Source: a virus (Duplodnaviria > Caudoviricetes). From it: a DNA stretch of 61,474 bases. The translations under genes were made by a program, and so were the position numbers. Positions 47,443 to 60,693 of the stretch are shown in pieces. The stretch is taken from positions 1 to 61,474 of IMG/VR virus record IMGVR_UViG_3300050132_000042; one strand, given 5' to 3'. A model generated the notes under the pieces. That model worked only from the letters and a program-made list of their open reading frames with translations. It was not told the origin of the DNA and ran no database searches. The first letter of the stretch is position 1. Each line of letters opens with the position of its first letter.

Positions 47443-48546
47443 TTAGACGCCGAGCTTCTGGCTGATGCCAGCGGGGAACTTGATGATCGAGCCGAAGGTG
47501 CCGCCCGACTTCTTCTGATGCGTGCTGGAGGTGTCGCGCACGATGGCATGCGCGCGCATCTTCTCGGTGAAGCAGGCGAAGCCGGTGGTCTGGCCCTGGA
47601 TCTTCGGGGCCATCATCTGCACGAGGTTGCCGGAACTGGTGGCGAACTGAGCAGCGGTCTTGATGACCATCTTCGGAAACGCTTCGGCCAGGTACGCCTT
47701 GACGCTGGGCGTGCCATAGACGTTCTGCATCGGGGTCAGCAGATACGGCTGCACACTGGGGGCCAGCGTGAGCACGAGCGGGTCTTCCATCTCGATGTTG
47801 TCGACGACCTGGGACTGAAGCTGGACGAACATATCCAGCACGTCGTTGACGATCTTGACGCCGGTACCGGCGACGCTCGCGGCCTTCCAGGTGCCGTCCA
47901 GCGGAGCCAGCGCTGCGGACAGCGCTGGGTCGTTGAGCAGCCCGTAGTTGTCGAGGCCGGACACGCCGTAGAAGTAGCTGTAGTTCTGGAACGTGTTCAT
48001 GACGTGCGCGCTGGCGAGGTTCAGTTCGGCAGCGCGGTCGATCTTGGCAAGACCGGCGCGGGCGAGTTCCTTGTCACCCCATTCGGTGAAGACCTGATAG
48101 TGGTAGGCCTGCCGGGGCTCCCAGTTCACGTTGGAGCCAGCGCGACCGTTGTTGTTGAAGTCGCCATAGCTGCTGGTCTCACCCGTGTACTCGGTGAGCG
48201 GGAACTGGATCGACTCGGTCGTCCAATCGCCCTTCTTCACTTCGCCCTTGCCGCCTGCGGCCAGCCAGATCTCGACGGCCTTGAGCGGAACGGTGAGCAC
48301 ATGAACCAACTCGGGGTCGAGGAAGTTCGTCAACTGCGCAGGGATGCCCGCGTTGGCCTGCGTGACAAGCTGCGGCTGCGACGCGTAGGTCGGCGCTGCG
48401 TCCATCGCCATGATCTTGTCCATGGCGTCGATTCCGGCCTGCGAGTTGCGCAGATCGACGGACGGGAACAGGTGCGACCCGCCGCTGTCGATACCGATGC
48501 CGAAGCGTTCGGCAAGCATTTTGGTTTCTTGGGTGTATCGAGGCAT
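47443..48546 (-). CDS. Major capsid protein (DUF2184-like)
   Basis: NAGIPA.LT.F.DP...EVKKGDW...YGD...YGLLNDP...FTEKMRAH; strong codon bias. Confidence 0.9.
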   Translation of the reverse strand: MPRYTQETKMLAERFGIGIDSGGSHLFPSVDLRNSQAGIDAMDKIMAMDAAPTYASQPQLVTQANAGIPAQLTNFLDPELVHVLTVPLKAVEIWLAAGGKGEVKKGDWTTESIQFPLTEYTGETSSYGDFNNNGRAGSNVNWEPRQAYHYQVFTEWGDKELARAGLAKIDRAAELNLASAHVMNTFQNYSYFYGVSGLDNYGLLNDPALSAALAPLDGTWKAASVAGTGVKIVNDVLDMFVQLQSQVVDNIEMEDPLVLTLAPSVQPYLLTPMQNVYGTPSVKAYLAEAFPKMVIKTAAQFATSSGNLVQMMAPKIQGQTTGFACFTEKMRAHAIVRDTSSTHQKKSGGTFGSIIKFPAGISQKLGV

Positions 48547-49564: not shown

Positions 49565-50581
<1,017 letters not shown>

Positions 50582-50604: not shown

Positions 50605-51192
50605 TTACTTGCTTCCGATCTTGAACTTCTTCTTTGCGGCGTTGATACGCCCTTGGATTGTCTTCTGCTCCTCCTCTGAGTAGAGAGCACGGTTCTTCGC
50701 CATGCCAAAGTAGCTCGCGGCGGCACGCACATGAGCCTCGGTGTCCAACGGGTATTTCTTGTTGATCGGGTCTGCGAACTTCACACTACCATACTTCGTC
50801 ACGCCTTCCTTGGGGCTGACATCCTCGCGCTGCTCGATGTCCTGCACGACCGACATGCCGCAGTCATCATGCGCCTTGTGACCTTCGATGCGGGCCATGG
50901 CTGCTCCTGCCTGCTTGTTGTTCTTGCCAGACCATATGACCTTGCCGCTCGTCTCGCCCTTGATCACGACCGGGGCGGGCTTGCCCTTGCTGTCCTTGTG
51001 GCCAGGGGCATGCATGACGACATCCTGCGTGACACTCTGATCTTCCTCATCCAGTTCAGGATCTTCGGCTGCGGCATCATTGCCATGCCAGTCGATTTCA
51101 GCGTCCAGGTTGCCCTTGCCATCGGACCAGTGAGTTGTCTCGAAGAACTCCTTGGCCTGTTTTTCCAGTTCAGCAACAGAGAAGTTTCTCAT
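50605..51192 (-). CDS. Modular head-associated protein (C-terminal DUF6582-like domain)
   Basis: KYGSVKFADP.NKKYPLDTEAHVRAA.SYF; small domains separated by x-x-D motifs. Confidence 0.65.
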   Translation of the reverse strand: MRNFSVAELEKQAKEFFETTHWSDGKGNLDAEIDWHGNDAAAEDPELDEEDQSVTQDVVMHAPGHKDSKGKPAPVVIKGETSGKVIWSGKNNKQAGAAMARIEGHKAHDDCGMSVVQDIEQREDVSPKEGVTKYGSVKFADPINKKYPLDTEAHVRAAASYFGMAKNRALYSEEEQKTIQGRINAAKKKFKIGSK

Positions 51193-52730
51193 GCGATCCT
51201 CCTGACCTTGCCCCACACTGCCGGATCGATGTACGCCTTCAACGCCATATCAGGAGAGTTGTGCAGATGCTCGCTGACTTTGGTAGCGACTTCCTTCTGA
51301 TACTTCTTGAACTCGGCTTCACCCTTGATCTGTGCGTGATTGCCGATGACAGCGCGTGCGGTCATCGTGCCGTGCCACGTCCTGAAATCCTTGGTGGTCA
51401 TCTCTTTGTCGCCGGTCGTGCGCTTGATGTACGCAGCAGTCTTTGCTGGAGTCGTCTCGAACATCTTGCCGCGCGCGCCGACTTCGGATTTGCGATCAGT
51501 CAGGAACTTGGCCAGGGCCGGATCACTGATACGATGCTCGATGTCGACGCCATGCTTGCCGACGAACTTGAACTTGATGTCGTTACCCTTGATGATCACA
51601 TTCTTGCCGAGAATCGTGGTCGCGCCGAACGTGGCTACCTTGCCCAGTTCCCCGCGTGCGCTTTTCTCATTGCCAACACGGAAGCCAGTGGCATTAATCA
51701 GACAGATGGCGGCGGCAGTGTTGTCACCATTCTTCATGTCTGCTGTCGCCTGTTTGACCAGCGCAGGCCGAGCCTTGTCGAAATCTTTCAGCCGTGCAAA
51801 CTTCTCGGCGGCACTTCGCTGATCGTGCTCCTTCGAGTAGATCGACTGCTTCTTGCCACTCTTGTCGATGCCGGTGGCCTGCACATCAGCTTTAGGGTCA
51901 CGCGCAATATGCACGTCCTTCCATGCGGGCGGGACACCGAGCTTGTTCATGCGCTCAGTCTCTTTTGCACTGAGCGGCTTGCCCTTGGCATCGATACGAG
52001 TGACAACGCGGTCCTTGCCCTTGCCTGTTTCCTTGCTCGACGCACCAACCGTGCTCCACTGATTGCCGTGGAAGTCATGGCCGGGGAGATCACCATCGAG
52101 CCCAAGTGCGACGCGTATCGGGTCAGGCTGCAAGGCACGGCGCAGCGCGTCGGCGAAGCTGGGCCGCTTGAGTGCGGCATCACGCACCATCACATCGGGG
52201 CCTGCACGACCTTCTTCGACGAGCGCGACATGGTTGAAACGAATGTTCATCATGCAGCCGTCGTACTGCTGACCCTCGTACACGCCAGGAGTCATCACGA
52301 CATCGTGGCGATACGCGCAGGACAGTTCGCAGACTTCCTTGCTGTTCACGCCTTCGATTGCACCGGCCTTCTGGATGACCAGATCGTTGATCAAGTACGG
52401 GGCCTTGAACTCACCGGCCTGCCCGGTGTTGCCGACCTGATGCTTGGCGATGTCGGGGTTCTCCAAATCCATCGCGCTGACTTCGATATGCGCATCCATG
52501 AGAGGGATCATGTTGCAGGTCAGCGCAGCCTTGGCCAGTTCCTCGGCGGGACGAAGAATGTAGTAGATCCGCTTCGGGTCGAGATTCAACTGCTCCCAGG
52601 CCGGGATCTCCGCACCCATGTATGGGTTCACGCACGCTTTTGAAATGTTCGTACCTGACACATGGAGAAAACCATTTTCATCATAGTGACGGGCTGATGC
52701 AACTTTGTCGAATGCGAGCGCGTCACTCAT
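51189..52730 (-). CDS. DUF2213 prohead protease fused to DNA topoisomerase IB
   Basis: N-terminal ISKACVNPY.G.EIP...ELSCAY...NHVALVEEGRAGPDV. C-terminal VPPAW...QATGID..GKKQ.IY, FRVGN, FVGKHG, KDFRTW, LHNSP...AYIDP. Confidence 0.9.
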   Translation of the reverse strand: MSDALAFDKVASARHYDENGFLHVSGTNISKACVNPYMGAEIPAWEQLNLDPKRIYYILRPAEELAKAALTCNMIPLMDAHIEVSAMDLENPDIAKHQVGNTGQAGEFKAPYLINDLVIQKAGAIEGVNSKEVCELSCAYRHDVVMTPGVYEGQQYDGCMMNIRFNHVALVEEGRAGPDVMVRDAALKRPSFADALRRALQPDPIRVALGLDGDLPGHDFHGNQWSTVGASSKETGKGKDRVVTRIDAKGKPLSAKETERMNKLGVPPAWKDVHIARDPKADVQATGIDKSGKKQSIYSKEHDQRSAAEKFARLKDFDKARPALVKQATADMKNGDNTAAAICLINATGFRVGNEKSARGELGKVATFGATTILGKNVIIKGNDIKFKFVGKHGVDIEHRISDPALAKFLTDRKSEVGARGKMFETTPAKTAAYIKRTTGDKEMTTKDFRTWHGTMTARAVIGNHAQIKGEAEFKKYQKEVATKVSEHLHNSPDMALKAYIDPAVWGKVRRIA

Positions 52731-52732
52731 GA

Positions 52733-53017
52733 TCACTTCCTCCCCACGCTCAACTGCTTGACTGCGGCATTGTGCGCTGCGGCCTGCTTCATGTGGCCCG
52801 CAGCCTTCTGCACGTTCGGCACGACGGCCCACAGTTCTCCTGCTGTCGTGTGCGCCTGGGCAGCGTTGCGGTGCGCAGGCATGCTGCCGACCCGATTGGC
52901 GACAGCGCTGAGCCTCGCAGCCTGCTCGCTGAGTTGCGTGGCCTTCGCCTCGAACGCGGGCGACTTGCCACGATTGATGACGACTGGCTTCTGAACCTTG
53001 ATGGGCGGCTTGGCCAT
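52733..53017 (-). CDS. Small basic Ala/His-rich helical protein
   Basis: AHRNAAQAH..A...H..QAAAH; RBS present. Confidence 0.6.
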   Translation of the reverse strand: MAKPPIKVQKPVVINRGKSPAFEAKATQLSEQAARLSAVANRVGSMPAHRNAAQAHTTAGELWAVVPNVQKAAGHMKQAAAHNAAVKQLSVGRK

Positions 53018-53018
53018 G

Positions 53019-53252
53019 TCAGTTCCCTTCTGCGGAAGCTGGCGCGTCACTGGGCTCGACTGCGATGATGGCATCGGGGTCGACTGCGATCACAGTGTTG
53101 ACTCGTGCCACGCCCATCTGGCCATTCGGCATGACGTTGACGAGCACGGTGGTCGTCTCATCGCAGGCCAGTGCGAACTGACCGGGACCTTTGGAGACGA
53201 GCACATTGAGGAGATTGAGAAAGCCCTGCGCGTCGTTCTTGTTGATGTTCAT
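53019..53252 (-). CDS. Hypothetical protein
   Basis: AGGAG RBS. Confidence 0.5.
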   Translation of the reverse strand: MNINKNDAQGFLNLLNVLVSKGPGQFALACDETTTVLVNVMPNGQMGVARVNTVIAVDPDAIIAVEPSDAPASAEGN

Positions 53253-53269
53253 TCTTGCTCCTGTTGGAT

Positions 53270-53578
53270 TCATTGCACACCGCCATTCTGCACGAGCAAT
53301 TGGCCGCTTAGCACGATTGTATTTCCCTGGTCTGTTACTGCGATGGCCGATAGAAGATATGTAACACCGCTCAGACCACCCTCGATTCGCTGTGAACTGA
53401 TATTTCCGGTCACAGTCGTCGGCCCCGTGATCATGTCTCCGGCGTTGGGGTCGCTGCTGATGACTGCCGCGCTGGTCGTGGATGCGCTCGTGATTGACTC
53501 GCCAGCCGAAAGGAGCTTGGTGAAATCCATGCTCACGATAATGGACTCTCGGGGGTCTTTCGCACTGAACGACTTCAT
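53270..53578 (-). CDS. Fibre-adaptor-like virion protein
   Basis: KDP.E...DF...L..GE.I...GG..G.TY pattern. Confidence 0.65.
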   Translation of the reverse strand: MKSFSAKDPRESIIVSMDFTKLLSAGESITSASTTSAAVISSDPNAGDMITGPTTVTGNISSQRIEGGLSGVTYLLSAIAVTDQGNTIVLSGQLLVQNGGVQ

Positions 53579-54918
53579 GCGGCTACCTCTCTGATTCTTG
53601 GCTGTCCGCTGATGCTGTGCATGACTGAATAATTCACAGCGATAACGTAGACTCTTGGTTGCGCTGAGATTATAGATTGTCTTGGGTCGCCGCTGACAAC
53701 ATACACCCGCGCGTCACCCGCCACCAGATATTTTAAATTTACCAGCAACGGGGTGTAGCCCTTGACGAAGTCGGCCAACCCGCCCGCTGTAATCACACCC
53801 GAACCGACGACGCCTCGTCCCAGGTTGATAGATGCAGCCCCCAGCGCGAGTACGCCGTCTGCGCCTGTGATAGACAGGGACTTCTGCCATGCGGCTGAAC
53901 TGAGCACCAGGACGCCGCCTGCTCCTACATAGCCGACTCTGACATTCAACTGCGCCGACGATCCAGTGACCACTCCACCGTTCGCATCTGCCACCAAGCT
54001 GAGCTTCGCGAGTGCTGACCCATCTGCGTCAACCCCGCCTGAAGCTACAGGTCGCGCAGACAAGCGGAATGCGCCGATCCCACTCAACGTCGCGCCACCC
54101 GTGCCAGTCCACTCCAGATGAAGTGCGCTCTGTGACTTGCTGAAGATGGCTGCGCCAGATGCAGTGATACCGCCAACTCCTGCGTGAATCAGCCCGAAGT
54201 TATACGCAGCCAGCCCACTCAGGGTGGCCCCGCCGATTGACGTGGCTGCGAGCCCCTTGCTCGTGATGGCGGCACTGCTGCTCACTATGCCACCAGCCCC
54301 GATGCTATGACTCGCACAGATGAACGCGGCGTTGCCTGTGGCAGCAGCACCGCCCATGCTCACGTTGTTCAGCGCTTGATAGGAACTGGCCGATGACGAC
54401 GTGACAACGCCGCCTGAGCCGGTCGATGCTGCAATGAAGTTGCCGAAGAACTGCGCTCGACTGACGTTGCGTATGGTTGACCCAGCCGCCTTGTCCATGT
54501 TTTTGCGAGTGAGACGAAGATCATGAGTGATGTTGCGATATTTCCACCGGGTCGTCTGCATTCTCGACACGACAGCGGAACTGCTTGCTGCAACACCGCT
54601 GAGTGCTGGCTGCTTGTCAGCAGTCTTGGAGAAGAATCGATCAGTCGTGAGTCTGAACACGACCCCACTGCCCCGCATGTTGACACAGGTAAGACGCAGA
54701 TCATTGGTGATGTTCTTGCGCGTGAATCTGCTGGTCTGCGCTCTTGCGACGATGGCAGTGCTGCCTGATGCTGAACCTGAAAGCGCAGGCTGCTTATCGT
54801 TCATGTGACCAAAGAACTCACGCGTCGACACGCGGAACACGACGCCATTGCCCTGACCCAGATTGGTTCGGGTCAGGCGCGGGTCGCGCGTGAGATTCTT
54901 ATAGCCCCAGTTGCTCAT
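53575..54918 (-). CDS. Repetitive fibre-like protein
   Basis: Three ~60-aa N-terminal repeats, then ~20-aa G/A/S-rich repeats. Confidence 0.65.
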   Translation of the reverse strand: MSNWGYKNLTRDPRLTRTNLGQGNGVVFRVSTREFFGHMNDKQPALSGSASGSTAIVARAQTSRFTRKNITNDLRLTCVNMRGSGVVFRLTTDRFFSKTADKQPALSGVAASSSAVVSRMQTTRWKYRNITHDLRLTRKNMDKAAGSTIRNVSRAQFFGNFIAASTGSGGVVTSSSASSYQALNNVSMGGAAATGNAAFICASHSIGAGGIVSSSAAITSKGLAATSIGGATLSGLAAYNFGLIHAGVGGITASGAAIFSKSQSALHLEWTGTGGATLSGIGAFRLSARPVASGGVDADGSALAKLSLVADANGGVVTGSSAQLNVRVGYVGAGGVLVLSSAAWQKSLSITGADGVLALGAASINLGRGVVGSGVITAGGLADFVKGYTPLLVNLKYLVAGDARVYVVSGDPRQSIISAQPRVYVIAVNYSVMHSISGQPRIREVAA

Positions 54919-55721
54919 TTGTCGATGATGTCCAGAGTTCCGGCGATGGCGGCACCATTGGCGGTGCCCGCTAGATATGCCCACATGAGACAGGCGTTGG
55001 CGTTGTCGATCTGCGGCAAGCCGATGGATGCCCAATCGAATGACTGCCCCGCGCCCAGAACGGGAATGGGGATCTCCAGCAAGCGCTTGGCCAGCAGGAT
55101 GCCGAAGCTGCCCGAGGTCCAGGTCTGGTTGGTGGCGGCGCTGACCACCTGGGACACGCCGAGAGACGATGGGTCAAGCGGGATGGGCTGAAGCTGCGCG
55201 AGGGCAGGGGCCGACACGACTGCACCGATAACGCCGCTCTTGGCTGCTCCGAGCGTATCGAGATAGTTCAGGGTCAACGTGCCGGATGCTGCACCATTCG
55301 CAGCAAGCGTGTCGACCCACGCTTCAACGCCGACACCACCATCAGTGATGCGGGCAGGCAGCGAGCCAGGGGTGGTGACGGTGTAGGTGTTCGCTGCGAA
55401 GCCCATGCCGCCGCAGCACCAGAGCCGATCCAACAGGATCAGCGTTCCAGGCTGTGCGCAGCCCAGCGTCAATCTGGCCAGCCACGCCTGCACTGAGCAT
55501 GGCGGGTAGTATTGCGCGCCAGGAGTGGCGGCGCTGCATTGATAGCCTGAACCGGAGTTGTACGCTGGGGCTGCACCGCCCGCGCCTGGGAATCCAGCGG
55601 CAGACCATCCACTCACGAATGAACCAGCCGCTTTTGGTGCAGCGATGGTCTTCAGGAACCGAGACGACTTGCGGTTGTTGGCAAGTGCGGACGCGATATC
55701 GTCGACAGTGGAAATGCTCAT
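54915..55721 (-). CDS. Virion-associated protein
   Basis: L.DRLW...Y.D..G..K...G.FG..L...LP.I...ACL pattern seen in phage fibre clusters. Confidence 0.6.
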   Translation of the reverse strand: MSISTVDDIASALANNRKSSRFLKTIAAPKAAGSFVSGWSAAGFPGAGGAAPAYNSGSGYQCSAATPGAQYYPPCSVQAWLARLTLGCAQPGTLILLDRLWCCGGMGFAANTYTVTTPGSLPARITDGGVGVEAWVDTLAANGAASGTLTLNYLDTLGAAKSGVIGAVVSAPALAQLQPIPLDPSSLGVSQVVSAATNQTWTSGSFGILLAKRLLEIPIPVLGAGQSFDWASIGLPQIDNANACLMWAYLAGTANGAAIAGTLDIIDK

Positions 55722-55729
55722 GTCTGCTC

Positions 55730-56131
55730 CTACGTCAACGAGATCTTGGGGGTGATGGTGAGCGAGTCGCCGTTGTTGAACACCTGCCCGCCTGGGTAGA
55801 TCTGCTCAGCCCAGTAGAGCGTGCCGCTGCTCGCACCGACCAGGAAGTAGCCATACACAGTGCCAGTGTTGGTCCAGTTGATGACCTGCCCCGCGCTGTA
55901 CTGAATGTACGACGGCGTGCCGACGACTGGGTTGCTCCAGCCCGCACGAGGCAGAGCGATGGCCGCATAGCCAAGCCCCGCGCCGACTTCGGTATAGTTT
56001 GATGCAGTGTCGCCCGCTACGGGCGCGTGCGCATTGCTGTAGAGTTTCAGGATGAGCGCCTCTGGGCTTGCGGCCTGAAGTGCGTTCGCCAACATCTGAG
56101 CTTCGCCAACTGACAGACAAAGCAGGCTCAT
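55730..56131 (-). CDS. Virion-associated fibre-base protein
   Basis: LKLYSN...D....TE...GYA...VYGY.L...L.WAE...GD.L.ITP. Confidence 0.65.
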   Translation of the reverse strand: MSLLCLSVGEAQMLANALQAASPEALILKLYSNAHAPVAGDTASNYTEVGAGLGYAAIALPRAGWSNPVVGTPSYIQYSAGQVINWTNTGTVYGYFLVGASSGTLYWAEQIYPGGQVFNNGDSLTITPKISLT

Positions 56132-56943
56132 GATTGCTCCTCATTGGGGTTGGTTTCTTCAGTGTCGTAGCCTGGAATGATGGACTCACCTACGCATCCG
56201 CAATTGATGTCCTCGCCTGGAAGCACTGGGCCTTCGCCATCATCGAAGTCGTGCCCTATCGCGATGTCGTACTCTTGCCCATCGAACTCCTGATGCTCGA
56301 TGCGCGGCTGTAGACTCGCGCCCGAGTGCAGCCAACGCCCGGTCGTGATGCCCAGTTCAAGCTGGCGAAGCTGATGGATCGCAGCGGTCGCCTTGTTGTT
56401 CTGGTCACGCGCGATGAGTGACGCCCGCCTGCGCGTGACGCCATACTCATGATGCAGGTGCTCGGTAAGCTCGCCGATGGCACGGCCTGCACGCACACTC
56501 TCGAAGACCTTGGTGTGGATAGCGCCGAAGAACTCTTGCGGGATGCTCTTGATCAGGTTGACGTTGTCGCGCGTGATGTTGATCATCTTCATCTGGATCT
56601 TCGGCGTGATCTTGAACGGCACACTGAAGCCGCCCTTGCTGAGCGAGGCACTGAACGCGAGATCGTGATGGCGCAGCACGTTGTTCGTGAATGACTCGCT
56701 GATCGTGCCTTGCATGTGATCGAAGTTCTTCGTCCAGCGCTTGCGCAGTGAACGCAGCGTGGACTGGATAGTGCGGTCCATCGCCATGCGACTGCGATAC
56801 GCAGGAACGATCTGCGCATCGCAGTCGTCACACATCTCGTTGATCATGTTGAGCAGCGCACGCCGATACGCAGCCGTCACGCCCGCGTTGGGGAACGTGG
56901 CGGCAATGCGTATGGGCTCGCGGCCCGGTGCGCGAAGTTTCAC
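56128..56943 (-). CDS. MuF / SPP1 gp7-like minor head protein
   Basis: NV.LIKSIP...RA.LIARDQNNK...W.HS...PR..H...PG..INCGC. Confidence 0.9.
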   Translation of the reverse strand: MKLRAPGREPIRIAATFPNAGVTAAYRRALLNMINEMCDDCDAQIVPAYRSRMAMDRTIQSTLRSLRKRWTKNFDHMQGTISESFTNNVLRHHDLAFSASLSKGGFSVPFKITPKIQMKMINITRDNVNLIKSIPQEFFGAIHTKVFESVRAGRAIGELTEHLHHEYGVTRRRASLIARDQNNKATAAIHQLRQLELGITTGRWLHSGASLQPRIEHQEFDGQEYDIAIGHDFDDGEGPVLPGEDINCGCVGESIIPGYDTEETNPNEEQS

Positions 56944-57877: not shown

Positions 57878-59041
57878 CTACGAGAACGTGTTGCCGGAGA
57901 CGGTGCAGGACGAACCTGCCGAATTGGAGACGCCTGCTGCATTGCCGGTGCCGGTGTTGCTGAGCACCTTGACTGTGCCGTTGCGCGTGCTGCGCACAGT
58001 CACCGCAGGCCCCTTGTTGCTGTTGATGCGATTGTTCTGGATGACGACGTTCGCGCTGTTCTGGCTCTCGACGCCGCCCCATGACGACAAGCCGCCGTAG
58101 ATCCCGCCGCTGGTACCGTTGTTGTTGATGTCGTTGTTCTGAATCATGACGCCATTGACGACGCCAGGGCCAGTATCATCGGGGCCGGACTGAATGCCGC
58201 CGCCCAGGTTGCCGGTGATGGTGCATTGTTCGATCAGGACATTGGAGACAGACTGCGTCGACTGGTCAGGCTCGATGTCAATGCCGCAGGCGGGGCTGGT
58301 GCCGTTGGTATTGATGAAGCTCGATGCGAAGACATGCAGCCCGTTCACGCTGTCGATGGTCATGCCCTGGCGGCGGTTGCCGTTGGATATGACGCCCGTG
58401 ACGACGAACGTATGGGCAGGAGCGCCGGGGCCGATGTAGATGCCATCGCCACAGCACCCGCTGATGGTCAGGCCGGTCGTCTTGCCGTCACCCGTGCCTT
58501 CGATGGAGCAGTTCGTGCAGGCGTCGGCGCCGATGCCCATGCCCCACTCGGACGGGCTGGACTTGCTCGCGCGGTCGCCGACGACGCTGCCGCCGCCCGT
58601 GACGTGCGCGTTCGTGACGCCTGCGGGGAAGTAGACTGTGTAGTAGGTCTGCAAGCTGCTGGGCGTGGTGACGGTGCCGAGCGTCGCGCCCGAGTCGATC
58701 TGCAAGGTCACGTTGCTGGCCAGGATGAGACCGTACTCACCATGGAACGTGGGGTTGATCAGGTATGGCTTGCTGGCTGCGGGCACGCGCACGATGTACG
58801 GAGCAGTGCTGGTCGCTTTCATCGCTGCGGTGTTGATGAGTGACTGGATCTGACTAGTGGCGTCGCTTCCTGCGAGCGTGACATCGACGACCAGCGTGGT
58901 CGAAGATGTCGGCGGCGGGGGAGTGACGACGGGAGGAGGCACTGGCGCGGCGATGAACGCCGCGAAATCAGTGTTCAGGGTATTGAGCGCAGTCTGAACG
59001 GCTGCGATGTCTGCTTGGATTTGTGTGGCTGTGATAGCCAT
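57878..59041 (-). CDS. Right-handed beta-helix (pectin-lyase-like) protein
   Basis: EWGMGI...GDGIYI...NRRQG...GIDIEP; Asn/Gly ladder; N-terminal helix and Pro linker. Confidence 0.8.
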   Translation of the reverse strand: MAITATQIQADIAAVQTALNTLNTDFAAFIAAPVPPPVVTPPPPTSSTTLVVDVTLAGSDATSQIQSLINTAAMKATSTAPYIVRVPAASKPYLINPTFHGEYGLILASNVTLQIDSGATLGTVTTPSSLQTYYTVYFPAGVTNAHVTGGGSVVGDRASKSSPSEWGMGIGADACTNCSIEGTGDGKTTGLTISGCCGDGIYIGPGAPAHTFVVTGVISNGNRRQGMTIDSVNGLHVFASSFINTNGTSPACGIDIEPDQSTQSVSNVLIEQCTITGNLGGGIQSGPDDTGPGVVNGVMIQNNDINNNGTSGGIYGGLSSWGGVESQNSANVVIQNNRINSNKGPAVTVRSTRNGTVKVLSNTGTGNAAGVSNSAGSSCTVSGNTFS

Positions 59042-59055
59042 GATGTACTCCACGA

Positions 59056-60693
59056 TTACGAGTTGAACTCCGCGTTAGTGGCTTGCGCATTCTCTGCCTT
59101 CATCGAGTTGCCGCCCGCTGCACCGCCCTTCTGCTGCGCTGCACTGGGATCAAGCAATTCGCCTTCGGGCTTGTCGACATCGAGATTGCCCCACCCGCTG
59201 TCGGGGTCGGCGGCGATCTTCTCTCGCACTTCGGTATTGGTGACGACGCCATTCGCGATGAAGATCTGCGCTTCTTCGGCGTTCGACTTGCGGATCAGCG
59301 CATGCTCCTTCTCGGTCATGCTCATCAGGCTCACGAAGTCAAATGCGATGTCTTCGTAGATCTCACCGAACTTGCTCAACTGGATCACGCGAATGATCTT
59401 CTCCAGGTTCACGCGGAACAGCCGTTCCTGCTGGTCGTTGACGTAGTCATAGAAGATGCGTAGACCTTGCTCATCGCTCGCGTTCAGGCCGCTGGGCGTG
59501 ATGCCGAGCAGGATGACGAGTGGCGTCTTCGCGACTGCGGCCATGTGCTCCTGTGCCTGCGCCTGGAGCTTGTCGAGGCCACTCAGCGAAGTCTCGTGCT
59601 TCTCGAACTCCTCGGTCTCCTTGTCGAGCAGCAGAATGCCCTGATTGTCGCGCAGCGCGTTGTACATCTGCGCACGAGCAAGGAACGCATCATTGTTCTG
59701 GCCTTGCAGCACGCCCTCCATGTTGGTCTTCAGGACTGATGCGCTGAAGTTCTTCAGCAGTCGACCCACGCTGTCGCGCGTGTTCAGCCAGTAATTCACG
59801 TACGGCTCGGCAAGCTGGCTGAGCGAGATGCCGCTGAAGTTGAACACGGGCTTGAGCAGATCGGGCAGCGGGCGAGATACGAACGTGAGCAGGCGCGATG
59901 CACTGACTTCCTGGCCATACACCCACCAGGAACTCGGCACATAGTAGTCCTGCTTGAGCGGCCACGACGAGTTGTACACAGCAGGGTAGGTCGTGATCGG
60001 CTCGATGATCTTCAATGCACGCAGACTGTCCTTGCGCACACTGTACGGATTGAGCAGGATCGGGTAGCCCAGTTCCTTGCCGTCTGTCTGGCCGAAGTCC
60101 ATGAAGATCTGACAGCGACCGAAGAAGCCATCCTTCTCTGCGGCTTCGAGGAACTTCTCGCGCACGCCCAGGCGCTTCATCTCGGCCTTGATGATCGCGA
60201 TCTGCTTGTCGCGCTTCTTGCTGCCGCCCTCAGTGCGGAACTCGATCCACTTGCGGCACATCTCTGCGGCCACACGGCAGGACATATCGCGGTATTCGGT
60301 GATCTCGGTCAACTCGGTGAGATACGGGAAGCCGGGGAACCCCATGCCGGTGAAGAACGCAGGCCCGCCGCCTTCGCTGGTGAACGCGCCACTGAACATC
60401 GAGTCCTTGGCAATCGTTTTCGACACATGCAGATCTTGGCAGATGAGATTCTTGACGGGCGGCACATATGGCGTGCGCTTGTACTCGGGCACGGGCATGA
60501 TGCCCGCAACCGACTTGCCGGTGCCGATGGCTTCGGCCATGCGCTCGACGAGGATGGGGCTGATCTCCATCATCTTCTTGAATTTCTTCTGCGCCTGCAC
60601 GTTGTCGACGATGCGCTCATGACGCAAGCGCTCGCAGTCGCGCTCGGCTTTGCGGACTGCCCACTTGTGCTCTGCCCAGGTGATGATGCTCAT
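59056..60693 (-). CDS. Portal protein (DUF1073-like)
   Basis: FPGFPYL.EL...SRLL.F..RP.PD.LKP.FNF.G.SL.QL...LSGLD.LQAQ.QE...LLGITP.GLNAS. Confidence 0.9.
   Translation of the reverse strand: MSIITWAEHKWAVRKAERDCERLRHERIVDNVQAQKKFKKMMEISPILVERMAEAIGTGKSVAGIMPVPEYKRTPYVPPVKNLICQDLHVSKTIAKDSMFSGAFTSEGGGPAFFTGMGFPGFPYLTELTEITEYRDMSCRVAAEMCRKWIEFRTEGGSKKRDKQIAIIKAEMKRLGVREKFLEAAEKDGFFGRCQIFMDFGQTDGKELGYPILLNPYSVRKDSLRALKIIEPITTYPAVYNSSWPLKQDYYVPSSWWVYGQEVSASRLLTFVSRPLPDLLKPVFNFSGISLSQLAEPYVNYWLNTRDSVGRLLKNFSASVLKTNMEGVLQGQNNDAFLARAQMYNALRDNQGILLLDKETEEFEKHETSLSGLDKLQAQAQEHMAAVAKTPLVILLGITPSGLNASDEQGLRIFYDYVNDQQERLFRVNLEKIIRVIQLSKFGEIYEDIAFDFVSLMSMTEKEHALIRKSNAEEAQIFIANGVVTNTEVREKIAADPDSGWGNLDVDKPEGELLDPSAAQQKGGAAGGNSMKAENAQATNAEFNS

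What the first reader, a model, noticed from the sequence alone, without database searches (positions are those of the whole stretch)
51189..52730. Prohead protease fused to a complete topoisomerase IB: candidate capsid-loaded enzyme delivery system
Seen: one ORF with DUF2213 (first ~185 aa), a linker ending LGLD|GDLPGHDFHGNQW (52094-52056), then a bacterial/poxvirus-type Topo IB with all catalytic positions recognisable: R (FRVGN), K (FVGKHG), R (KDFRTW), N in place of His (LHNSP) and Tyr (AYIDP, 51231-51233). Known: Topo IB relaxes supercoils without ATP, poxviruses package it to support early transcription, and it is uncommon in tailed phages. I recall GHxFHGNQW-like peptides preceding variable domains in phage head proteins. 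Inference: the fusion targets Topo IB into the prohead, the protease releases it at the Asp, and it either relieves torsion during packaging or ejection, or is injected to aid early transcription or counter host defence. The peptide may be a general cargo tag.
Basis: partly seen in the sequence, partly recalled or inferred. Interest (0 to 1): 0.9.

Follow-up and report, generated by a model that had tools for sequence, protein, structure and literature searches.

The report
Phage head protease carrying topoisomerase IB
An uncultured 61-kb contractile-tailed phage has joined its only recognisable capsid-maturation protease to a complete, apparently active DNA-relaxing enzyme through a cut-site-like motif and a widespread short peptide, which suggests but does not prove that the enzyme travels inside the virus head.

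Summary
ORF 51189-52730(-) encodes 513 aa: DUF2213 (14-184), a low-confidence linker, the peptide GDLPGHDFHGNQW (213-225), then a bacterial/poxvirus-type topoisomerase IB with R351, K392, R450, N491 and Y500 in place.

Contigs from three other studies bridge the junction. Five further DUF2213-TopIB proteins exist. One relative, 43% identical, keeps the same gene order and the same ATGA stop/start overlap.

DUF2213 has the T4 gp21/herpesvirus assemblin fold (Z 10.5) with invariant H81, S137 and H167. It is the only head-protease family I found in this genome.

The fusion arose by insertion of a peptide-plus-TopIB cassette directly after a conserved hydrophobic-small-x-Asp motif (LGLD212) in an ancestral DUF2213-DUF6582 gene. 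The same kind of motif is invariant in the capsid protein, two residues before the first visible residue of phage E217's capsid protein.

The peptide heads modules in many phage polyproteins. Related DUF2213 genes carry another cargo behind the same junction.

Capsid loading, cleavage and injection remain inferred. I found no paper describing phage-packaged TopIB. Earlier reports of this scan noted similar TopIB cargo fusions on other DNA. I class it as a new variant of phage polyvalent, head-protein-fused effectors.

The parts
51189..52730 (-). Whole fusion gene, 513 aa plus stop: DUF2213 protease domain, linker, header peptide, topoisomerase IB
   Evidence: start context
52179..52691 (-). 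DUF2213 domain (residues 14-184), T4 gp21/assemblin-like fold. Invariant H81 (52488-52490), S137 (52320-52322), H167 (52230-52232)
   Evidence: Pfam; own-genome match at the same coordinates; invariant columns in 40 sequences; fold
52095..52178 (-). Linker, residues 185-212, low model confidence. It ends in I205-R-V-A-L-G-L-D212, the cut-site-like motif
   Evidence: pLDDT 39-54 for blocks 181-220; I205, G210, D212 invariant in 5 of 5 fusions
52056..52094 (-). Header peptide GDLPGHDFHGNQW (residues 213-225)
   Evidence: single copy in the window; 133 copies in 20 viral loci
51834..52055 (-). TopIB N-terminal beta-sheet domain (about residues 226-299; Pfam Top1B_N_bact 247-289)
51192..51833 (-). 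TopIB catalytic domain (residues 300-513) with R351, K392, R450, N491, Y500 (Tyr codon 51231-51233)
   Evidence: same columns invariant or at least 90% conserved in 150 relatives
51189..51203 (-). AGGAGG (51198-51203) and ATGA stop/start overlap (51189-51192), coupling the fusion gene to the next gene
   Evidence: the same ATGA overlap in relative L025
50605..51192 (-). Downstream gene, 195 aa from the ATG: new acidic leader ending SVTQD, then the DUF6582 module that in relatives is fused directly to DUF2213
   Evidence: Pfam DUF6582 E 9.2e-26; P0007/P0011 and loci L001, L026, L027, L029 show the unsplit form
49565..50581 (-). Scaffold-like protein with a long poly-Asp run. Matches the C-terminal part of the PHROG 2229 'head maturation protease' profile
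   Evidence: profile positions 207-421, E 1.3e-25; repeat
47443..48546 (-). Major capsid protein (DUF2184 family) with K-I-M-A-M-D49|A-A-P, the same kind of motif as at the fusion junction (Asp codon 48400-48402)
   Evidence: PHROG 264; D49 invariant in 118 of 118 homologues
59056..60693 (-). Portal protein (Phage_portal_3), upstream boundary of the head module
56128..56943 (-). MuF-like head morphogenesis protein
   Evidence: Pfam Phage_Mu_F E 1.2e-08

Best explanation
This is one gene for the phage's head-maturation protease with a DNA topoisomerase IB riding on its C-terminus.

Shown:
- The N-terminal 185 residues have the T4 gp21/herpesvirus assemblin fold, with an invariant His-Ser-His set.
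- The C-terminal 290 residues are a complete bacterial/poxvirus-type TopIB with the R-K-R-N-Y pentad.
- The two are joined by a flexible linker ending in a conserved hydrophobic-small-x-Asp motif (LGLD212), followed by a widespread 13-residue header peptide.
- The cassette 'header peptide + TopIB' was inserted exactly at that motif into an older DUF2213-DUF6582 gene.

Inferred:
- The protease domain takes the whole protein into the assembling procapsid.
- After assembly the protease cuts after D212 (or D214), as it is inferred to cut the capsid protein after the invariant AMD49. This would free a TopIB of about 34 kDa that cannot leave the closed shell.
- The enzyme stays with the packaged DNA and leaves through the tail at infection. 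It would then relax or otherwise rework DNA without ATP in the first minutes, as the virion TopIB of poxviruses is recalled to do.
For: Domains and catalytic residues. The catalytic columns are invariant or at least 90% conserved in the 150 nearest cluster representatives.

Folds. The whole model has pLDDT 87.7 with two confident domains and a low-confidence linker. It matches TopIB 2f4q at E 1.4e-15 and variola TopIB at TMt 0.68. For DUF2213 alone the matches are T4 gp21 Z 10.5 (rmsd 2.9 A, 128 residues), VZV protease Z 9.8 and HCMV protease Z 7.1, and the first unrelated row scores 5.4. Foldseek's top rows are almost all gp21 or herpes proteases.

Protease status. H81, S137 and H167 are invariant in 40 sequences. 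DUF2213 occurs once in the genome. Peptidase_S78, ClpP, S49 and S78_2 gave 0 matches in this record, which CheckV estimates as 100% complete.

Capsid residence of the family. In phage Pa193, gp24 has a DUF2213 N-terminus. It was found in virions by LC-MS, and its residues 286-326 bind the capsid interior (PMC11456595, passages).

Cut site.
- D212 is invariant in 5 of 5 fusions.
- Relatives with other downstream modules end the same unit with GMD, AMD, AQD or ASD.
- Capsid protein D49 in L/M-A-M/Q-D|A is invariant in 118 of 118 homologues.
- E217 gp25 reads SAMD64-S-N66, and the paper says that the first 65 residues are not visible (PMC10329688, passage).
- The motif [VILM][AGT]xD lies within 14 residues upstream of 23 of 61 header peptides in the DUF2213-linked set, against 196 of 1700 control windows.

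Modularity.
- L038 and L041 carry DUF2213-ALGID-GDVPGHEFHGNQH followed by an unrelated module of about 160 aa.
- Orthologous fusions P0005, P0008 and L025 carry an RDxxGRW peptide at the same place.
- Of the 150 nearest TopIB relatives, 107 are 400 aa or longer. Among the 150, 15 carry MuF, 18 match a portal family, 1 carries DUF2213 and 1 Peptidase_S78_2. Others carry InPase (7), ART-PolyVal (5), Acb1 (5) or 2H (5).

Conservation of the arrangement. L025, 43% identical, keeps MuF, the fusion, DUF6582, scaffold, decoration protein and capsid protein in the same order, and keeps the ATGA overlap.
Against: - No virion proteomics, cleavage data or enzyme assay exists for this uncultured phage.
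- The fusion lacks the scaffold-like C-terminal part through which Pa193 gp24 is seen bound to the capsid. How the protease domain enters the prohead here is therefore unknown.
- The catalytic triad is inferred from invariance and residue order only. I could not inspect coordinates.
- The cut-site regex was written after looking at these sequences, and the sequences are related, so the p-value is inflated.
- In the broader TopIB set the motif is not enriched (6 of 82 against 85 of 1410).
- E217's first visible residue is N66, not S65, and its authors leave open whether the propeptide is cleaved or disordered.
- AlphaFold places the end of the peptide (from W225) in the first strand of the TopIB N-domain. 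The peptide may therefore be partly structural rather than a signal.
- The peptide occurs once in this genome.
Confidence: 0.55

Rival explanations
1. TopIB works inside the head or at the portal during DNA packaging or ejection, relieving twist or knots. It is not meant to act in the host cytoplasm.
For: The fusion to a head-internal protein places it next to the DNA. Of the 150 nearest TopIB relatives, 18 match a portal family, which would put the enzyme at the DNA channel. TopIB needs no ATP (established knowledge, recalled).
Against: The same TopIB clade is fused to ADP-ribosyltransferases, Acb1, InPase, 2H phosphoesterase and GNAT modules. These only make sense in the host cell. Portal and MuF fusions are a general loading route for such effectors (PMC5512222, passages). 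Nothing here distinguishes the two sites of action.
Confidence: 0.15
2. The fusion only co-expresses TopIB with late genes. The protease cuts it off in the cytoplasm (or it acts uncut), and TopIB serves replication, recombination or concatemer processing and is never packaged.
For: Phage genes for DNA metabolism are sometimes displaced into late operons. No packaging evidence exists for this protein. The fusion lacks a scaffold-like capsid-binding tail.
Against: - Independent TopIB fusions to portal, MuF, DUF2213 and S78_2 head proteins (at least 35 matches among 150 relatives) are hard to explain by co-expression alone.
- Close stand-alone TopIB genes keep a leader, the Asp motif and the header peptide (P0004, P0006).
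- Prohead proteases are, as far as I recall, active only after assembly.
Confidence: 0.15
3. The TopIB domain has become a non-catalytic internal head or DNA-binding protein.
For: Internal head proteins are often basic DNA binders. No activity has been measured.
Against: All five catalytic positions are kept here and are invariant or at least 90% conserved in 150 relatives at 35-66% identity. This argues for selection on catalysis.
Confidence: 0.05
4. The junction is an assembly chimera of a protease gene and an unrelated TopIB gene.
For: The record is a metagenome assembly. Run X1, which holds the whole stretch, may be its own source.
Against: Contigs from three other studies bridge the junction. 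Five further fusion proteins from other sources have the same architecture. Gene order and the ATGA overlap are conserved at 43% identity.
Confidence: 0.02

Closest known systems
Phage-type polyvalent proteins and portal- or MuF-fused effectors (Iyer, Burroughs, Anand, de Souza, Aravind 2017, PMC5512222; passages read)
   Same: An enzymatic effector sits on the same polypeptide as a head-associated domain, in a phage with a portal-terminase system, and is proposed to be packaged and injected. The nearest TopIB relatives share partners named in that paper (ART-PolyVal, InPase, MuF, portal).
   Different: In the main text of that paper 'topoisomerase' occurs once, in a reference title. TopIB is therefore not described there as a cargo; its supplementary files could not be read. 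Here the carrier is the head-maturation protease itself (DUF2213), and the junction is a cut-site-like motif plus a short header peptide.
Pbunavirus DUF2213-scaffold proteins: Pa193 gp24 (PDB 9b40) and E217 gp23
   Same: Same N-terminal DUF2213 domain (E 1.6e-10 and profile E 1.8e-24), same place between MuF and the decoration/capsid genes, same capsid protein family, and the same A-x-D motifs.
   Different: Those proteins continue into an acidic linker and a scaffold domain whose helix-turn-helix stays bound inside the capsid. Here the scaffold is a separate gene and the passenger is an enzyme. The word 'protease' does not occur in either paper's main text.
T4 gp21 prohead protease with internal proteins IPI-III and Alt (capsid targeting sequence, cleavage at L/I-x-E); recalled, not read here
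   Same: An assemblin-fold protease (structural match Z 10.5) that would cut cargo free inside the head after an acidic residue. The cargo would then be injected with the DNA.
   Different: T4 cargo carries a short N-terminal targeting peptide and is encoded separately from the protease. Here the cargo is fused to the protease, the P1 residue would be Asp, and a conserved peptide stays on the cargo side of the cut.
Poxvirus virion topoisomerase IB (vaccinia/variola; PDB 2h7f, 3igc, 1a41)
   Same: Same fold and catalytic layout (TMt 0.68, E 4.4e-13). It is a DNA-relaxing enzyme carried in a virus particle (packaging recalled from general knowledge).
   Different: The poxvirus enzyme has His where this one has Asn (N491, as in D. 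radiodurans TopIB). It is a free core protein of a eukaryotic virus, not a passenger on a capsid protease.
Deinococcus radiodurans TopIB (PDB 2f4q, 3m4a)
   Same: Closest solved relative by sequence (E 7.5e-27) and by fold (E 1.4e-15). It has the R-K-R-N-Y pentad and a two-domain architecture.
   Different: It is a cellular, stand-alone enzyme. The match starts at chain residue 36, and the header peptide and protease have no counterpart in it.

Membership tests
Type IB topoisomerase, bacterial/poxvirus type | N-terminal beta-sheet domain plus C-terminal catalytic domain | tested here: met
   PF21338 at 247-289 (E 1.3e-13) and PF01028 at 304-491 (E 1.8e-16), both over their curated cut-offs. 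Fold matches to 2f4q, 3m4a and 2h7f.
Type IB topoisomerase, bacterial/poxvirus type | Catalytic pentad Arg-Lys-Arg-(His/Asn)-Tyr | tested here: met
   R351, K392, R450, N491 and Y500 sit in the conserved motifs shared with 2f4q. That these motifs hold the D. radiodurans catalytic residues is recalled. The residues are invariant in 5 of 5 fusions and invariant or at least 90% conserved in 150 relatives.
Type IB topoisomerase, bacterial/poxvirus type | ATP-independent relaxation of supercoiled DNA through a 3'-phosphotyrosyl intermediate | not testable with these tools
   Needs a plasmid relaxation assay with a Tyr500-to-Phe control.
Assemblin / T4 gp21-type prohead serine protease (here Pfam DUF2213) | The assemblin/gp21 fold | tested here: met
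   VIA-align: 5jbl_A Z 10.5 (rmsd 2.9 A, 128 of 165 residues), VZV protease Z 9.8, HCMV protease Z 7.1, first unrelated row 5.4. Foldseek's top rows are gp21 and herpes proteases, prob 0.93-0.99 but E only about 7e-3.
Assemblin / T4 gp21-type prohead serine protease (here Pfam DUF2213) | Catalytic Ser and His residues brought together in the active site | tested here: inconclusive
   H81, S137 and H167 are invariant in 40 sequences and stand in the His-Ser-His order of herpes assemblins (the order in assemblins is recalled). Coordinates could not be inspected, so spatial clustering is unverified.
Assemblin / T4 gp21-type prohead serine protease (here Pfam DUF2213) | Gene placed between portal and major capsid protein, as the phage's head protease | tested here: met
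   Order: portal, MuF, fusion, DUF6582, scaffold, decoration protein, capsid protein. There are no matches to S78, ClpP, S49 or S78_2 in the record. The S77 search was uninformative because its control matched nothing.
Assemblin / T4 gp21-type prohead serine protease (here Pfam DUF2213) | Demonstrated cleavage of capsid or scaffold proteins | not testable with these tools
   Only indirect evidence: the invariant AMD motif in the capsid protein, and E217's capsid protein being visible from residue 66, after SAMD64.
Phage polyvalent protein (Iyer et al. 2017) | Two or more unrelated domains in one polypeptide of a phage, including a virion-associated domain and an enzymatic effector | tested here: met
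   DUF2213 plus TopIB. Long DUF2213 relatives: 44 of the 50 listed carry DUF2213, and among these 15 also carry NUDIX, 7 LPD3, 3 an ADP-ribosyltransferase and 1 a zeta toxin domain.
Phage polyvalent protein (Iyer et al. 2017) | Packaging in the virion and delivery to the host | not testable with these tools
   Needs virion proteomics and infection experiments.
T4-type capsid targeting sequence cargo | Short N-terminal targeting peptide on a separately encoded cargo, removed by the head protease | tested here: not met
   Here the sequence upstream of the putative cut is the 212-residue protease unit itself, not a short leader. Close stand-alone TopIB genes (P0004, P0006) do have short leaders before the same motif.

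The most novel reading that the evidence does not exclude
Phages with DUF2213 proteases may use a two-part junction code. The first part is hydrophobic-small-x-Asp as the protease's 'cut here'. The second is a header peptide that stays on the cargo: GDxPGHxFHGNQ[WY], interchangeable with the HPRD..GKF and NPEGINQY types. Under this reading the header is not a spacer. It would be the signal that keeps or positions the freed enzyme for exit with the DNA, so that any enzyme bolted on behind it becomes an injected protein. Topoisomerase IB would then be the first enzyme to meet the incoming genome, or the host chromosome. It would be a phage counterpart of the poxvirus core topoisomerase, possibly capping or rejoining DNA ends as well as relaxing supercoils.
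Probability: 0.3. Interest if true: 0.85.

Novelty: new variant of a known kind. Interest (0 to 1): 0.6.

Why it matters
If the enzyme is loaded and injected, tailed phages would have a virion-borne topoisomerase, which is otherwise known for poxviruses. DNA topology would then join ADP-ribosylation, nucleotide hydrolysis and RNA cleavage among the things a phage can change in the first moments of infection.

The locus is also a compact natural example of how cargo is attached. There is one essential carrier (the head protease), one conserved cut-site-like motif shared with the capsid protein, and one short header peptide. Relatives show the empty site, the same site with another cargo, and the same cargo with another header.

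That makes the 'address and cut' idea directly testable with a handful of cloned genes. If it holds, it gives a simple handle for loading chosen proteins into phage heads.

It would also assign a function and a likely cleavage specificity (P1 Asp) to DUF2213. This very common phage domain is still listed as unknown, and two recent structural papers on therapeutic Pseudomonas phages treat it only as a scaffold.

Tried and rejected
- Nucleotide search of the gene against 50,697 phage records: no match.
- Protein search with the whole fusion: 693 records matched, 0 covering 80% or more of the query. All 40 listed rows match only the DUF2213 part.
- TopIB part alone: 1 of 50,697 records, Bacteroides phage BS162P1 top1E. 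There it is a stand-alone gene among small hypothetical genes at the record's start, not in a head module.
The contigs of P0002, P0003, P0008 and P0015/P0020 could therefore not be read by that route. I used the search for related loci instead.
- A degenerate HPRD-type peptide in the leader of the downstream gene (FFETTHWSDGKGNL): dropped. The orthologous leader in L025 lacks the His, and BLASTP aligns only the DUF6582 part.
- CCCTT, the poxvirus TopIB site as I recall it: 72 matches against 67.6 +/- 8.7 expected. No signal.
- Terminal or long direct repeats: none, apart from the GTC run that encodes poly-Asp and one 42-nt pair.
- DUF2213 profile against the peptide-bearing viral loci: it matched only L001, the relative without the peptide, and 0 of the 20 loci L002-L021. 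Those loci reach only 8 kb either side, so this says little about which protease those phages use.
- The cut-like motif is not enriched upstream of header peptides in the broad TopIB set: 6 of 82 against 85 of 1410, p 0.38. A looser regex gave 15-26% against 11%.
- Pfam on the alternative cargo of L041/L038: nothing below E 0.01.
- A sequence profile of DUF2213 against PDB found only Pa193 gp24, not gp21 or the assemblins. The link to those is by fold only.
- The Peptidase_S77 search is uninformative because its control matched nowhere.
- Literature searches that found nothing relevant: GNQY + phage; FHGNQ/FRGNQ/GHPFRG/GHPFHG/HGNQW/RGNQY; 'topoisomerase IB' + bacteriophage + virion; 'type IB topoisomerase' + phage + capsid. 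For DUF2213, 7 papers were listed and none treats it as a protease carrier.
The Pa193 LC-MS tables and the domain lists of Iyer et al. 2017 could bear on whether the DUF2213 domain stays in virions and on whether TopIB was ever listed.
- Stretches of the laid contigs without cover are not evidence of anything.
- Complex prediction and the protein-atlas search were not used. I had no specific partner to test.
Full report
THE OBSERVATION

The window is a whole IMG/VR virus record of 61,474 bases that CheckV rates 100% complete. On the minus strand a single ORF runs from the ATG at 52730 to the stop at 51189-51191 and encodes 513 residues. The ATG is preceded by GGGAGGA and lies two bases after the stop of the upstream gene. 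The longer GTG-initiated reading (547 aa) is therefore unlikely.

Pfam finds three domains, all above their curated cut-offs:
- DUF2213 at residues 14-184 (E 2.9e-44);
- the bacterial TopIB N-terminal domain at 247-289 (E 1.3e-13);
- the TopIB catalytic core at 304-491 (E 1.8e-16).

PHROGs calls the N-terminal part 'head maturation protease' (phrog_2229, E 1.3e-74).

The best solved relative of the C-terminal part is Deinococcus radiodurans TopIB (2f4q, E 7.5e-27). In that alignment the conserved motifs holding the five catalytic positions line up: FRVG, GKHG, KDFRTW, LHNSP against LGNTP, and AYIDP against SYICP. The residues are R351, K392, R450, N491 and Y500. The peptide GDLPGHDFHGNQW is residues 213-225 (52094-52056).

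IS THE JUNCTION REAL?

Contigs assembled from runs of three other studies bridge it:
- X2, 51941-52211, one difference;
- X3, 51784-52732, about 91% identical, covering the whole DUF2213 domain, the linker and the TopIB N-domain;
- X6, 52028-52134.

Independent proteins with both domains exist:
- P0002 (75% identical), P0003 (48%), P0005 and P0008, which are 4 of the 120 listed hits;
- P0385, 1088 aa;
- the fusion in metagenome locus L025, 43% identical.

A misassembly is excluded for practical purposes.

WHAT THE TWO HALVES ARE

AlphaFold2 on a 50-sequence alignment gives a mean pLDDT of 87.7. It shows two confident domains (11-175 and about 225-510) and a low-confidence connection (pLDDT 39-54 for residues 181-220).

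The C-terminal domain matches D. radiodurans TopIB (E 1.4e-15) and variola TopIB (TMt 0.68).

DUF2213 modelled alone has pLDDT 89.6 and pTM 0.81. By an all-against-representatives structural search it matches the T4 prohead protease gp21 at Z 10.5 (rmsd 2.9 A over 128 residues). It also matches the VZV (Z 9.8), HCMV (7.1) and KSHV (5.6) assemblins, and the first unrelated row scores 5.4. Foldseek agrees in ranking but with weak E-values (about 7e-3).

In 40 aligned DUF2213 sequences H81, S137 and H167 are invariant. Their His-Ser-His order is that of herpesvirus assemblins as I recall it. I could not inspect coordinates, so the triad is an inference.

DUF2213 occurs once in the genome. Peptidase_S78, ClpP, S49 and S78_2 are not found, and the S77 search was uninformative. 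The carrier is therefore the phage's only recognisable head protease, which makes it an essential gene.

CONTEXT AND HISTORY

The gene order on the minus strand is:
- portal (59056-60693);
- a beta-helix protein;
- MuF (56128-56943);
- several unknown genes;
- the fusion;
- a DUF6582 protein (50605-51192);
- a poly-Asp scaffold-like protein (49565-50581);
- a decoration or minor head protein;
- the major capsid protein (47443-48546).

The fusion's stop and the next gene's start overlap as ATGA, with AGGAGG five bases upstream.

The closest relatives lack TopIB and have one DUF2213-DUF6582 gene, followed by a separate scaffold gene. These are L001/P0011, P0007, L026, L027 and L029. Comparing them with the window locates the event:
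- The left breakpoint is directly after ...PDPIRVALG(L/M)D.
- The right breakpoint is directly before (I/V)V..PGHKDSKGK.
- The inserted material is the header peptide, TopIB, a stop, and a new start with an acidic leader of about 65 residues that ends SVTQD.

Locus L025 is only 43% identical in the fusion. It nevertheless has the same order (MuF, fusion, DUF6582 protein, scaffold, decoration protein, capsid protein) and the same ATGA overlap. The arrangement is therefore old and maintained.

THE ASP MOTIF

In all five aligned fusions I205, G210 and D212 are invariant. Relatives with other downstream modules end the same unit with GMD, AMD, AQD or ASD.

The capsid protein of this phage reads K-I-M-A-M-D49-A-A-P. 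In 118 of 118 homologues of at least 330 aa the Asp is invariant, within an L/M-A-M/Q-D-A consensus.

The capsid protein family is shared with Pbunaviruses. E217 gp25 reads ...S-A-M-D64-S-N66. Its structure paper states that the first 65 residues are not visible and may be cleaved or disordered (PMC10329688, passage). The E217 DUF2213-scaffold protein contains NAQD-AA, RAMD-SA and KAQD-SA.

Within the DUF2213-linked protein set, [VILM][AGT]xD lies within 14 residues upstream of 23 of 61 header peptides, against 196 of 1700 random windows (odds 4.6). I wrote that regex after seeing these sequences and the sequences are related, so the test only illustrates the pattern. In the wider TopIB set, which mostly comes from phages with other head genes, there is no enrichment (6 of 82 against 85 of 1410).

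I read this as a lineage-specific protease site with Asp at P1. No cut has been measured.

THE HEADER PEPTIDE

It occurs once in the six frames of the window. A scan of IMG/VR with peptide patterns from the protein brought 20 loci that match only residues around 211-264. In those loci G[HNDS]x[FYW]xGN[QH][WYF] occurs 133 times in 75 distinct contexts:
- 68 of the 75 are preceded by GD;
- 21 of the 75 lie within the first 60 residues of an open frame;
- 54 of the 75 are internal, with up to five per protein of more than 2000 residues.

Where Pfam recognises anything in five of these proteins, it is of the polyvalent kind. A GNAT hit at 888-937 follows the peptide at 843, an ADP-ribosyltransferase hit at 1470-1503 follows the peptide at 1437, one protein ends in MuF, and another ends in pentapeptide repeats.

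Loci L038 and L041 encode DUF2213-...ALGID-GDVPGHEFHGNQH followed by an unrelated module of about 160 residues with no Pfam match. That is the same carrier, junction and header with different cargo.

Conversely, the orthologous fusions P0005, P0008 and L025 carry ...ALGMD-Y..Q.RD..GRW at the same place, so two header types are interchangeable.

Close stand-alone TopIB genes (P0004, P0006) keep a short leader, S-[VI]-T-L-D and the header.

AlphaFold places W225 and the following residues in the first strand of the TopIB N-domain. Part of the peptide may therefore pack on the cargo.

THE TOPIB CLADE

The TopIB part, searched against 1.84 billion cluster representatives, gives 5540 hits at E up to 1e-3 and 841 at E up to 1e-30. 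Of the best 150, 107 are 400 aa or longer. Pfam on all 150 gives these counts of members:
- Phage_Mu_F 15;
- portal families 18 matches (Portal_Mu 8, Phage_portal_3 8, Phage_portal 2);
- InPase 7;
- ART-PolyVal 5;
- Acb1 5;
- 2H-type phosphoesterase 5;
- GNAT about 4;
- DUF2213 1;
- Peptidase_S78_2 1.

The catalytic columns are invariant or at least 90% conserved.

A header of one of three types lies within 75 residues upstream of the TopIB N-domain in 38 of the 114 proteins where I could place the domain start. There was none in 76, and the start could not be placed in 36.

Deposited phage genomes almost lack this enzyme: 1 of 50,697 records matches.

Long DUF2213 proteins are common carriers. 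Of the 50 listed, 44 hold DUF2213. Among these, 15 also hold NUDIX, 7 LPD3, 3 an ADP-ribosyltransferase and 1 a zeta toxin domain. Pfam architectures of DUF2213 with NUDIX, LPD3 and DUF1073 are mentioned in PMC8770471 without interpretation (passages).

MECHANISM

What is shown:
- a real, conserved gene fusion;
- an assemblin-fold domain with invariant His, Ser and His;
- an intact TopIB;
- a flexible linker;
- a conserved Asp motif shared with the capsid protein;
- a widespread header peptide;
- swappable cargo at this exact site.

What comes from the literature: a DUF2213 protein is present in Pa193 virions by LC-MS, and part of it binds the capsid interior (PMC11456595, passages).

What is inferred: the protease domain brings the fusion into the procapsid, the protease cuts after D212 or D214, the 34-kDa TopIB remains inside and leaves with the DNA, and it then acts on DNA without ATP.

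I put about 0.55 on this chain as a whole. The fusion being real and the enzyme being active rate higher, and injection rates lower.

Open points are how the protease enters the shell without a scaffold tail in cis, and what the header peptide does.

COMPARISON AND NOVELTY

The closest framework is the polyvalent protein concept of Iyer et al. 2017. In its main text 'topoisomerase' appears only in a reference. My four literature searches on phage TopIB and on the peptide found nothing relevant.

Earlier reports of this scan describe TopIB cargo fusions and cut-site-plus-tag junctions on other DNA. First-reader notes on this same window proposed the A-x-D code and the variable cargo locus. I tested the A-x-D idea here and it held as far as sequence can show.

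I class the finding as a new variant of a known kind, with interest 0.6. The phenomenon is striking and apparently not in print, and this locus is an unusually clean, experimentally tractable example. Every functional step beyond domain identity is still inference.

Noticed in passing
L038:1541-2821 and L041:5884-7182: DUF2213 genes with the same ALGID-GDVPGHEFHGNQH junction but a different C-terminal module of about 160 residues that has no Pfam match. It is an unknown cargo family.
   Followed up: partly
window 49565-50581 (-), repeat at 50107-50238: The scaffold-like protein contains an uninterrupted run of about 30 Asp residues encoded by a GTC/GAC repeat. Relative L001 has a similar but shorter run.
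   Followed up: no
window 57878-59053 (-): A right-handed beta-helix, tailspike-like protein (Pfam Beta_helix E 4.4e-12) sits directly after the portal gene, inside the head module. The relative L001 goes from portal straight to MuF.
   Followed up: no
window 52733-55721 (-): Four to five ORFs between MuF and the fusion (113, 102, 486 and 268 aa) have no Pfam or PHROG match. They are absent or different in L001 and L025, so this is a variable block in the head module.
   Followed up: no
L023 (phage E217): 4291-5439 and 2209-3642: E217's capsid protein has SAMD64 two residues before its first visible residue. Its DUF2213-scaffold protein has three A-[QM]-D-[AS] motifs. The main texts of the E217 and Pa193 structure papers never use the word protease for this gene.
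   Followed up: partly
L008:4353-10562: A 2070-residue protein with five header peptides ends in pentapeptide repeats (Pfam E 2e-28). As I recall, that fold is known from DNA-mimicking gyrase protectors.
   Followed up: no
L022 (Bacteroides phage BS162P1): 1827-2591: This is the only deposited phage record of 50,697 with a match to this TopIB. There it is a short stand-alone gene among small hypothetical genes at the start of the record, not in a head module.
   Followed up: partly
P0013, P0022, L029, L037: A third header type, NPEG[IA]NQ[YW], follows S-V-T-x-D-like motifs in DUF2213 proteins, sometimes twice per protein. It shares the G-x-N-Q-aromatic ending with the GNQW type.
   Followed up: partly
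window 50605-51192 and relatives: DUF6582 is always the last module of these proteins and is 71% identical between the window and L025, while everything before it varies. Its role is unknown.
   Followed up: no
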